A DNA stretch of 64,000 bases from a virus (lineage: Duplodnaviria > Caudoviricetes): IMG/VR virus record IMGVR_UViG_3300050491_000011; one strand, written 5' to 3'. Position 1 is the stretch's first letter; each line of letters starts with the position of its first letter. The notes beneath the pieces were generated by a model. That model was not told the origin of the DNA, ran no database searches, and saw nothing but the letters and a program-made list of their open reading frames with translations. The translations under genes were made by a program, and so were the position numbers. Below are positions 57,456 to 57,581 of the stretch, piece by piece.

Positions 57456-57581
57456 GATTCCTGTAGCTCAGTAGAAGAGCGCCCCCACAACGGTTCGATT
57501 CCGTACGTACCCGACTTCGGTCTGGGTATGACTTGGAAAACATGGGGGAGGTCGGTGGTTCAATTCCATCTGGGAATCCCA
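57456..57581 (+). ncRNA. tRNA-like RNA with T-arm-containing module replacing the anticodon loop
   Basis: G-1:C73 acceptor plus CCA; CCCCCA/TGGGGG stem enclosing a 55-nt insert. Confidence 0.75.

What the first reader, a model, noticed from the sequence alone, without database searches (positions are those of the whole stretch)
57456..57581. Reduced double-elbow RNA: same design with a minimal inner module
Seen: GATTCCTG/TGGGAATC-CCA (G-1:C73), normal D and T arms, stem CCCCCA/TGGGGG. The 55-nt insert is a T arm (ACGG-TTCGATT-CCGT), a 7-bp acceptor-length stem CGTACCC/GGGTATG capped by GAC-TTCG-GTC, then ACTTGGAAAACA with a D-loop-like TGG. The order (T arm, capped acceptor, D-like loop) and the UUCG cap match 56691-56866 despite unrelated primary sequence. 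Inference: independent support that the architecture is selected.
Basis: partly seen in the sequence, partly recalled or inferred. Interest (0 to 1): 0.8.

Follow-up and report, generated by a model that had tools for sequence, protein, structure and literature searches.

The report
Two-headed tRNA mimic in phage
A soil jumbo phage encodes, inside its tRNA gene array, a conserved 126-nt RNA that keeps a full tRNA body but carries a second tRNA-like "top half" where the anticodon should be, so it almost certainly cannot decode and probably works as a tRNA look-alike of unknown target.

Summary
Window 57456-57581 (+) has an 8-bp acceptor with G-1:C73 and encoded CCA, D and T arms, and a 6-bp stem CCCCCA/UGGGGG. 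That stem opens onto a canonical T arm, a 7-bp stem with a cUUCGg cap, and a 12-nt UGG linker.

Five distinct copies exist in two sequence types (86% identical), all from one clade of uncultured soil or rhizosphere jumbo phages distantly related to Pseudomonas phage Psa21. Every change in the acceptor, the inner 7-bp stem and the outer T stem keeps pairing. Three pairs changed on both sides. RNAalifold recovers the same fold.

An intron reading is weak:
- ARAGORN's intron mode names different anticodons in the two types.
- No candidate loop keeps U33 in both types.
- The phage encodes no splicing endonuclease or RNA ligase.

The sibling at 56691 has a complete permuted tRNA insert with strong covariation and a sub-threshold YrlA hit. 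There is no Ro60 gene or Ro60-binding motif.

Best reading (0.55): a non-decoding RNA matured like a tRNA, with a histidine-type acceptor end, acting as a tRNA mimic. Expression and target are untested. That the two "double-elbow" genes are independent is not shown. This scan has noted anticodon-less phage tRNA "chassis" RNAs on other DNA before. I rate it a new variant of a known kind.

The parts
57456..57463 (+). 5' strand of the 8-bp acceptor stem (G-1 plus positions 1-7)
   Evidence: Pairs with 57571-57578. Three of the 8 pairs vary between copies and all stay paired, one with changes on both sides.
57464..57481 (+). U8-A9, D arm (GCTC / 7-nt loop / GAGC) and G26
   Evidence: The stem is invariant in all copies. 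The loop is AGUAGAA here and AGUGGUA or AGUUGGUA in the other type.
57482..57487 (+). 5' strand of the 6-bp stem that stands where the anticodon stem would be (CCCCCA)
   Evidence: Pairs with 57543-57548. Invariant in all copies. Predicted by MFE and by RNAalifold.
57490..57504 (+). Inner T arm (ACGG / TTCGATT / CCGT)
   Evidence: Exact T-loop consensus. Predicted by RNAalifold. It is the MFE in the L type. Only loop position 6 varies.
57506..57530 (+). Inner acceptor-length stem: 7 bp CGTACCC/GGGTATG, closed by the GAC-TTCG-GTC cap with a bulged T
   Evidence: U-A to C-G compensatory change and two C-G to U.G changes in the 7-bp part. G-C to A-U change in the cap. One cap pair is broken in the L type.
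57531..57542 (+). 12-nt single-stranded linker ACTTGGAAAACA with a conserved UGG
   Evidence: Two of the 12 positions vary and UGG is kept. The D-loop-like role is inference.
57543..57548 (+). 3' strand of the 6-bp stem (TGGGGG)
57549..57570 (+). Variable loop AGGTC and outer T arm (GGTGG / TTCAATT / CCATC)
   Evidence: One T-stem pair changes from G.U to A-U.
57571..57581 (+). 3' strand of the acceptor stem, discriminator C73 paired to G-1, and encoded CCA
   Evidence: Homology with other strains' contigs stops at 57585-57588.
56691..56866 (+). Sibling element: tRNA body whose anticodon loop is replaced by a complete permuted tRNA (T arm, closed acceptor stem, D arm)
   Evidence: Sub-threshold YrlA hit of 43.4 bits. 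The inner stem is rebuilt with different sequences in five orthologs.
57986..58004 (+). Terminator-like hairpin with a T run that ends the tRNA and tRNA-like array

Best explanation
This is a gene for a non-decoding, tRNA-shaped stable RNA.

Shown:
- It lies on the + strand in an ORF-free array of tRNA and tRNA-like genes that ends in a terminator-like hairpin.
- Its outer body keeps the elements of a class I tRNA: acceptor, D arm and T arm, U8, A14, G15/C48, G26, the AGGUC variable loop and an encoded CCA.
- It has no 7-nt anticodon loop. A 6-bp stem opens into a junction with a canonical T arm and an exactly 7-bp stem closed by a cap.
- The helices that vary between the two known sequence types keep pairing.

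Inferred:
- It is transcribed with the neighbouring tRNAs. Host RNase P and 3' exonucleases cut it out, as they do tRNAs.
- G-1 pairs with C73, so RNase P should leave an 8-bp acceptor as in tRNA-His. Host HisRS could then charge the free end, because G-1:C73 is enough to confer histidine acceptance on minihelices (PMC9976931).
- The inner T arm stacks on the 7-bp stem to form a second, closed tRNA 'top half'. This is a circularly permuted, D-armless tRNA that shares the 6-bp stem with the outer tRNA.
- The product presents two tRNA-like heads and cannot read codons. It acts as a tRNA mimic that binds, titrates or bridges proteins which recognise the tRNA acceptor/T-arm domain or elbow. The likeliest setting is the phage-host conflict over tRNAs.

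The protein target is unknown.
For: - Structure and motifs.
- Conservation: five distinct copies in two types (86% identical) from separate metagenomes. 98.4% of pair cells are paired. Three pairs changed on both sides. Six single-sided changes in four further pairs, mostly G.U/Watson-Crick switches, keep pairing. Slid controls give 25-51%.
- Flanks: they are unrelated right up to 57448-57454 and from 57585-57588, so the unit is kept as a cassette in different neighbourhoods.
- Coding and termination: no ORF of 50 aa or more between 56976 and 58043. Terminator at 57986-58004.
- Sibling 56691: it keeps a permuted T arm, closed stem and D arm while the stem sequence is replaced in orthologs. It scores 43.4 bits with the YrlA model.
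- Precedents: YrlA tRNA-like domains are modified by TruB and DusA, and with a 7-bp stem are cut by RNase P (PMC4201824). T4 encodes the stable RNAs rnaC and rnaD at the end of its tRNA cluster, and rnaC has a T arm.
Against: - No expression or processing data of any kind.
- Only two sequence lineages, so covariation is thin. The 6-bp stem, the D stem and the inner T stem are invariant and therefore uninformative.
- In the window type a competing helix is 0.5 kcal/mol better than the inner T arm.
- The window copy has lost G18 in the outer D loop.
- The element is confined to one narrow phage clade.
- No partner protein was identified. Histidylation and RNase P cleavage at -1 are inferred from identity rules, not tested.
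Confidence: 0.55

Rival explanations
1. An intron-containing tRNA gene. The roughly 48-51-nt insert is removed and the exons are joined to give a decoding tRNA: Arg-ACG, Val-AAC or Pro-UGG.
For: The strings CAACGG and AACAU are invariant, and CUUGGAA in the window copy looks like a Pro anticodon loop.
Against: - The same program calls the orthologs tRNA-Val(aac) with a 51-nt intron at another position, so the call is not conserved.
- None of the three candidate loops has U33 in both types: CAACGGA has A33, A[A/U]AACAU has U33 only in the L type, and C[U/C]UGGA has it only in the W type.
- The UGG loop does not abut the stem.
- Both the phage record and its complete 254-kb relative lack tRNA splicing endonuclease, RtcB, Rnl2-type ligase and T4 Rnl1-type ligase.
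- 48-55 nt is too short for a self-splicing group I intron (established knowledge).
- The insert is itself built from tRNA modules under structural constraint.
Confidence: 0.07
2. An evolutionary relic: fused and partly deleted remains of tRNA genes in a fast-shuffling array, transcribed or not, with no function of its own.
For: - Arrays in this phage group are mosaics with many odd tRNA-like units.
- The window copy has lost G18.
- Distribution is narrow.
- The inner module looks like a D-arm deletion derivative of a 56691-type insert.
Against: - Every substitution in the acceptor, the inner 7-bp stem and the outer T stem keeps pairing, and two of those pairs changed on both sides; a third both-sided change lies in the cap stem, where one other pair is broken in the L type.
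- Long invariant blocks sit next to flanks that share no similarity.
- The same unit is retained in at least three different neighbourhoods and several habitats.
Confidence: 0.15
3. A Y RNA of the YrlA type: the inner module recruits a host Ro60 (Rsr) protein and its nuclease partners.
For: It shares the YrlA order of T arm then closed acceptor-like stem. The sibling 56691 gives a full-length YrlA alignment at 43.4 bits. Some jumbo phages carry Ro60/TROVE genes (PMC7824862).
Against: - The target itself gets no YrlA hit over its inner module.
- The YrlA model also fires below threshold on adjacent tRNAs in control genomes, as its authors warn (PMC4201824).
- The D arm is missing.
- There is no GNCGAA(N)G Ro60-binding motif anywhere in the array.
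- There is no TROVE gene in the phage or its complete relative.
Confidence: 0.1
4. A precursor cut a second time by RNase P inside the cap, before G57524. This would yield a two-piece, base-paired RNA or two tRNA-half-like fragments that are the active species.
For: - The inner stem is exactly 7 bp, stacked on a T arm, with U at -1 and G at +1 in both types.
- M. smegmatis YrlA, which has a 7-bp stem, is cleaved this way and receives CCA (PMC4201824).
- In the L type the cap stem is nearly unpaired.
Against: There are no data. In the W type the leader is held in a stable cUUCGg hairpin. YrlA RNAs of Salmonella and Deinococcus are not cleaved (PMC4201824).
Confidence: 0.1

Closest known systems
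YrlA-type bacterial and phage Y RNAs (Rfam RF02553; Chen et al. 2014, PMC4201824)
   Same: A tRNA mimic without an anticodon. It has the same permuted order: T arm, then an acceptor-like stem closed by a loop. The T loop is canonical. A 7-bp closed stem also occurs in the M. smegmatis RNA.
   Different: - No Ro60-binding helix or motif, and no rsr gene in the phage.
- No inner D arm.
- The module is embedded in a complete tRNA body with its own free acceptor end and CCA.
- No Rfam hit on the target.
Phage T4 species 1 and 2 RNAs (rnaC, rnaD)
   Same: Small stable RNAs encoded in a phage tRNA cluster, next to true tRNAs and of unknown function. rnaC folds with a closing stem and a canonical T arm.
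   Different: No detectable sequence similarity. The layout differs: there is no intact D arm plus anticodon-position stem carrying a second T arm. The phage group is different.
Canonical class I tRNA (best match tRNA-Ile(GAU) of a related phage, L017:6590-6666) with a tRNA-His-type acceptor end
   Same: Acceptor, D arm, T arm, variable loop, tertiary-pair nucleotides and CCA. The body is 74% identical to that tRNA-Ile. It has G-1:C73, as in bacterial tRNA-His.
   Different: No 7-nt anticodon loop; a 55-nt structured insert stands in its place. RF00005 does not match it even at E-value 10, and ARAGORN in standard mode does not call it.
Histidine-accepting tRNA-like structures of plant RNA viruses and G-1:C73 minihelices (PMC9976931, PMC8127992)
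   Same: Viral RNAs that do not decode but carry the -1:73 pair which makes them HisRS substrates.
   Different: Those are pseudoknotted 3' ends of RNA genomes. This is a separate small gene in a DNA phage with a true cloverleaf body. Charging is untested here.
Engineered 'tRNA scaffold' RNAs, in which a cargo replaces the anticodon loop (recalled from memory: Ponchon and Dardel 2007), and D-armless mitochondrial tRNAs
   Same: The insert sits at the same place in a tRNA that is otherwise processed and stabilised as a tRNA. The inner module, a T arm plus acceptor stem joined to the stem by a short loop, resembles a D-armless tRNA.
   Different: This is natural, and its cargo is itself a tRNA top half. 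The resemblance comes from memory and was not tested.

Membership tests
Canonical tRNA (Rfam RF00005) | Cloverleaf with a 5-bp anticodon stem and a 7-nt loop carrying U33 and a purine at 37 | tested here: not met
   A 6-bp stem leads into a 55-nt structured insert. No candidate loop keeps U33 in both types.
Canonical tRNA (Rfam RF00005) | Detected by the tRNA covariance model or by ARAGORN in standard mode | tested here: not met
   No RF00005 match on 57456-57581 even at E-value 10. ARAGORN default does not call it.
Canonical tRNA (Rfam RF00005) | Acceptor stem, D arm, T arm, tertiary-interaction nucleotides, 3' CCA | tested here: met
   G18 is missing in the window type only.
Intron-containing tRNA | A conserved anticodon and intron position across orthologs | tested here: not met
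   ARAGORN -i gives Arg(acg) with an intron at 38 in one type and Val(aac) with an intron at 31 or 32 in the other.
Intron-containing tRNA | A splicing machinery: endonuclease plus ligase, or a self-splicing intron | tested here: not met
   No tRNA_int_endo, RtcB, RNA_ligase or RNA_lig_T4_1 in the phage record or its complete relative. Host enzymes were not examined.
YrlA Y RNA (Rfam RF02553) | Score at or above the family's gathering threshold (69 bits) | tested here: not met
   No hit on the target's inner module. The sibling 56691 scores 43.4 bits.
YrlA Y RNA (Rfam RF02553) | T arm, closed acceptor-like stem and D arm, in that order | tested here: inconclusive
   The T arm and the closed 7-bp stem are present. 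The D arm is replaced by a 12-nt strand with UGG.
YrlA Y RNA (Rfam RF02553) | Ro60-binding helix with a GNCGAA(N0-1)G motif, and a neighbouring Ro60 (TROVE) gene | tested here: not met
   The motif is absent from 55700-58010. There is no TROVE match in the phage or its complete relative.
Histidine-accepting tRNA mimic | G-1:C73 pair closing an 8-bp acceptor stem, followed by CCA | tested here: met
   Present and invariant in all five distinct copies.
Histidine-accepting tRNA mimic | Aminoacylation by HisRS | not testable with these tools
   Needs an in vitro charging assay or an acid-gel Northern blot.
Phage tRNA-cluster stable RNAs (T4 rnaC/rnaD type) | Encoded within a phage tRNA cluster on the same strand, non-coding, with tRNA-like elements | tested here: met
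   T4 comparison.
Phage tRNA-cluster stable RNAs (T4 rnaC/rnaD type) | Accumulates as a stable processed RNA | not testable with these tools
   No RNA run holds the locus.

The most novel reading that the evidence does not exclude
Phages have evolved a class of 'two-headed' tRNA mimics. Two tRNA top halves are joined through one shared anticodon-position stem. One head has a free, histidine-chargeable CCA end and the other is closed. The RNA is built to occupy or bridge two tRNA-binding sites at once, for instance to trap a tRNA-targeting defence enzyme or to tether a host tRNA-processing or charging enzyme. The element here would be the minimal form and 56691 the full form.
Probability: 0.25. 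Interest if true: 0.8.

Novelty: new variant of a known kind. Interest (0 to 1): 0.55.

Why it matters
Phage tRNA arrays are usually read as codon-supply or anti-defence spare parts. This element, its sibling and similar units in related phages show that the arrays also carry conserved RNAs that keep the tRNA shape but cannot decode. If they are stable and bind tRNA-recognising proteins, they would be a natural counterpart of the engineered tRNA scaffold. They would also give a new handle on the old puzzle of what the non-tRNA stable RNAs of phage tRNA clusters do, known since T4 species 1 and 2. The design, a tRNA whose anticodon loop is a permuted tRNA top half with a histidine-type acceptor end, gives sharp and cheap experiments: size on a Northern blot, RNase P sites, and HisRS charging.

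Tried and rejected
- RNA evidence: no RNA holder is listed among public runs. All runs laid were DNA contigs, so nothing can be said on expression.
- Wider homolog searches found nothing beyond the six copies (five distinct sequences):
  - GenBank phages by blastn.
  - Twenty related jumbo-phage records with the covariance model.
  - Two IMG/VR pattern scans.
  - Bacterial and archaeal genomes.
  - The other 14 metagenome pattern hits were chance tRNA neighbours.
- The 171-aa gene downstream gave no related loci. Pfam was blank for nine of ten neighbouring proteins.
- Joint model with 56691: MAFFT misaligned the inner modules of the two families (A5), so no joint covariance model was built. 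The model of the target alone matches 56691 and 57590 only through the outer body (50.6 and 25.1 bits) and does not list 57866-57972, even at E-value 10.
- My own descriptor scan for 'T arm followed by a 7-bp hairpin' was too noisy to count. Loosely defined T arms give many chance hits, and tandem tRNAs with the same acceptor stem could give the same signal.
- Insert as a mobile repeat: rejected, because it is single copy in the genome.
- The YrlA sub-threshold hit as proof of membership: rejected, because the model fires on adjacent tRNAs in control genomes.
- Pseudomonas phage Psa21 has the syntenic lyase gene and tRNA array but no ortholog of this element.

Full report
**Setting**

The window is part of a 188-kb IMG/VR virus record that is about 75% complete. 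Its nearest cultured relative, and a distant one, is the jumbo Pseudomonas phage Psa21. The link rests on a family-7 alginate-lyase-like gene at 56010-56684 that sits inside the tRNA array in both phages.

- Between 55722 and 57972 there is no credible ORF after the lyase gene.
- ARAGORN and Rfam recognise only three tRNAs in the window: Asn, a 76-nt 'Ser-GCT' and Asp.
- The T-loop motif GGTTCRANYCC occurs nine times here, all on the + strand, against 0.41 expected in the whole window.
- A terminator-like hairpin with a T run closes the array at 57986-58004.
- The finding is therefore one unit of a + strand array of tRNA and tRNA-like genes.

**The observation**

- The outer body is a complete class I tRNA: an 8-bp acceptor including G-1:C73, U8-A9, a 4-bp D stem, G26, the AGGUC variable loop with C48 opposite G15, a 5-bp T stem with a UUCAAUU loop, and an encoded CCA.
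- Where the anticodon stem-loop should be, a 6-bp stem (CCCCCA/UGGGGG) opens into four parts:
  - CA
  - a T arm (ACGG/UUCGAUU/CCGU)
  - after one A, a 7-bp stem (CGUACCC/GGGUAUG) extended by a 3-bp cUUCGg-capped helix with a bulged U
  - a 12-nt strand, ACUUGGAAAACA
- Corrections are small. The window copy lacks G18 in the D loop. The inner T stem has only four Watson-Crick pairs. In this copy the MFE prefers a competing helix by 0.5 kcal/mol.

**Relatives and constraint**

I built a covariance model from the element and its first two relatives and searched three sets of sequence:

- 80 loci found through the lyase gene
- 20 whole related phage records
- pattern hits from IMG/VR, metagenomes and prokaryote genomes

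Six copies score above 149 bits and nothing else is homologous. They fall into two types that are 86% identical:

- W type: the window, L102 and L103
- L type: L003, L004 and L104

They come from rhizosphere, soil, compost and digester samples.

On the five distinct sequences, 98.4% of pair cells are standard pairs, against 25-51% when partners are slid by 1-3 columns.

| Helix | Change between types |
|---|---|
| Acceptor | C-G to G.U (both sides), U.G to C-G, G.U to A-U |
| Inner 7-bp stem | U-A to C-G (both sides), and two C-G to U.G |
| Outer T stem | G.U to A-U |
| Cap helix | G-C to A-U (both sides); one pair lost in the L type |

It is the MFE of the L type.
- The 6-bp stem, the D stem and the inner T stem never vary, so they are neither supported nor contradicted by covariation.
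- The competing helix of the W type is not conserved. Its terminal pair becomes C.U in the L type.
- Sequence similarity to other strains stops at 57448-57454 and at 57585-57588. The unit has different neighbours in different phages, directly after tRNA-Asp in some and directly before a tRNA-Tyr in others. It behaves as a conserved cassette in a shuffling array.

**Is the insert an intron?**

It calls the L type tRNA-Val(AAC) with a 51-nt intron at another position.
The UGG loop does not adjoin the stem.
- The phage and its complete 254-kb relative encode none of the following: tRNA splicing endonuclease, RtcB, Rnl2-type ligase, T4 Rnl1-type ligase, CCA-adding enzyme, HisRS.
- The insert is single copy in the genome.
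- I put the intron reading at about 0.07.

**The sibling and the YrlA lead**

The element at 56691-56866 has the same outer plan, including G-1:C73 and CCA. Its insert is a whole permuted tRNA: T arm, closed acceptor stem, D arm.

- In five orthologs the closed stem changes from CAUCGCU/AGCGGUG to CACCGCU/GGCGGUG, and to AUCCCC/GGGGAU or GGGGGU. The long capped loop shrinks to 6-11 nt, while the T and D arms stay. That is strong evidence for the fold.
- The insert aligns end to end with Rfam YrlA at 43.4 bits against a threshold of 69.
- YrlA RNAs are the tRNA-like Y RNAs bound by bacterial Ro60. Their tRNA-like domain has exactly this permuted order, is modified by TruB and DusA, and with a 7-bp stem is cleaved by RNase P (PMC4201824).
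- Membership fails:
  - The model fires below threshold on adjacent tRNAs in control genomes.
  - The Ro60-binding motif is absent.
  - Neither the phage nor its complete relative has a TROVE gene.
- The target has the T arm and the closed 7-bp stem but no D arm. Its tail (UUGG-AAAACAU) resembles the sibling's D-loop GG and the AAAACAU that follows its D arm. It may therefore be a D-arm deletion derivative. This is inference.
- The outer bodies of the two elements are 73.5% identical. That is no more than the target's identity to a canonical tRNA-Ile(GAU) of a related phage, 74%. Whether the two 'double-elbow' genes are paralogs or independent inventions is open.

**How it most likely works**

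The chassis carries what host tRNA-maturation enzymes need. The encoded G-1:C73 pair is the major bacterial histidine identity element and suffices on minihelices (PMC9976931). I therefore expect three things:

- excision by RNase P leaving G-1
- a mature CCA end
- possible histidylation

With no anticodon loop the RNA cannot decode.

The inner T arm (5 positions) plus the 7-bp stem reproduces the 12-bp acceptor/T stack of a tRNA, closed at its end. The 12-nt linker takes the place of a D arm, as in D-armless mitochondrial tRNAs. The product would be two L-shaped heads sharing one stem. The most economical function is a stable tRNA mimic that engages proteins recognising the acceptor/T domain or elbow.

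Which protein it engages is unknown. It could be a tRNA-modifying or tRNA-processing enzyme, a synthetase, EF-Tu, a nuclease complex as for Y RNAs, or a tRNA-targeting defence enzyme. A second RNase P cut before G57524 is possible, since U is at -1, G at +1 and the stem is exactly 7 bp. It is untested.

**Known and new**

- Non-decoding tRNA-like RNAs in phage tRNA clusters have a precedent in T4 species 1 and 2 RNAs. Permuted tRNA mimicry has a precedent in YrlA.
- I found no paper describing a tRNA body carrying a permuted tRNA top half in its anticodon position. [quoted passage not shown]
- Earlier notes of this scan report anticodon-less phage 'tRNA chassis' RNAs with other inserts on other genomes. 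I did not test those.
- Related phages here also hold tRNA-like genes with other inserts at the same place: L017:6895-6998, L008:7537-7649 and L023:7225-7353.
- I class the finding as a new variant of a known kind. Interest is moderate to high. It is limited by the narrow distribution, by having only two lineages, and by the absence of any expression or partner data.

Noticed in passing
window 56691-56866: Sibling 'full' version. The anticodon loop is replaced by a complete permuted tRNA (T arm, closed acceptor stem, D arm). In five orthologs the closed stem is rebuilt from different sequences and its 30-nt capped loop shrinks to 6-11 nt. It gives a sub-threshold YrlA hit of 43.4 bits.
   Followed up: partly
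window 55893-55969: ARAGORN calls this 76-nt gene tRNA-Ser(GCT). Its acceptor stem (GGTGAACT...) matches the tRNA-His genes of related phages, including G-1:C73. It has no long variable arm, and its loop AGGCUUA has G at position 33. It looks like a tRNA-His derivative with a rewritten, non-canonical anticodon loop.
   Followed up: partly
loci L003-L023, L077 (tRNA arrays beside the lyase gene): Across this phage group the canonical tRNAs that recur in the arrays include Asp and Asn in every array listed, Tyr in five of nine and His in three: the four GUN-anticodon, queuosine-family tRNAs. Trp recurs in six of nine. From memory, these four GUN tRNAs are also the targets of colicin E5-type anticodon nucleases. 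This is a possible clue to what the arrays are for.
   Followed up: no
L017:6895-6998, L008:7537-7649, L023:7225-7353: Related phages carry other long tRNA-like genes (99-129 nt) with intact acceptor, D and T arms and unrelated hairpin inserts at the anticodon position. The L017 and L008 pair keeps the flanks CC...ACCAU while the hairpin sequence is replaced.
   Followed up: partly
L002:3711-3830 (Pseudomonas phage Psa21, MK552327, just after tRNA-Ser): An unannotated stretch in a cultured phage holds a T arm followed at once by a 7-bp hairpin with a 4-nt loop and then a D-arm-like sequence. This is the same permuted junction as in 56691.
   Followed up: no
L124-L240 (IMG/VR): At least 117 viral contigs hold two T-loop motifs only 49-69 nt apart, closer than two adjacent tRNAs allow. 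In 27 of the 122 motif pairs found on them a 7-bp acceptor-like stem encloses both. One example is L182:11658-11791 (coordinates counted on the - strand), a full tRNA body whose anticodon-position stem opens onto a T arm and a small hairpin.
   Followed up: partly
window 57448-57454 and 57585-57588: Contigs from other metagenomes lose similarity exactly at the borders of the element and continue into other tRNA or tRNA-like genes. Units of the array are exchanged as cassettes.
   Followed up: partly
window 56010-56684: An Alginate_lyase2 (PL7) family gene (Pfam E-value 1.4e-41) sits inside the tRNA array. It is conserved at that place in 80 viral loci, including Psa21.
   Followed up: no
window 57590-57721 and 57866-57972: Two further tRNA-like units. 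They are conserved in L003 (95% and 84% identical) and in L004 (57866 at 84% over its full length; 57590 only over its last 45 nt, 83%), with long capped hairpins at the anticodon position. 57590 scores only 25 bits with the model of the target, and 57866 is not listed.
   Followed up: no
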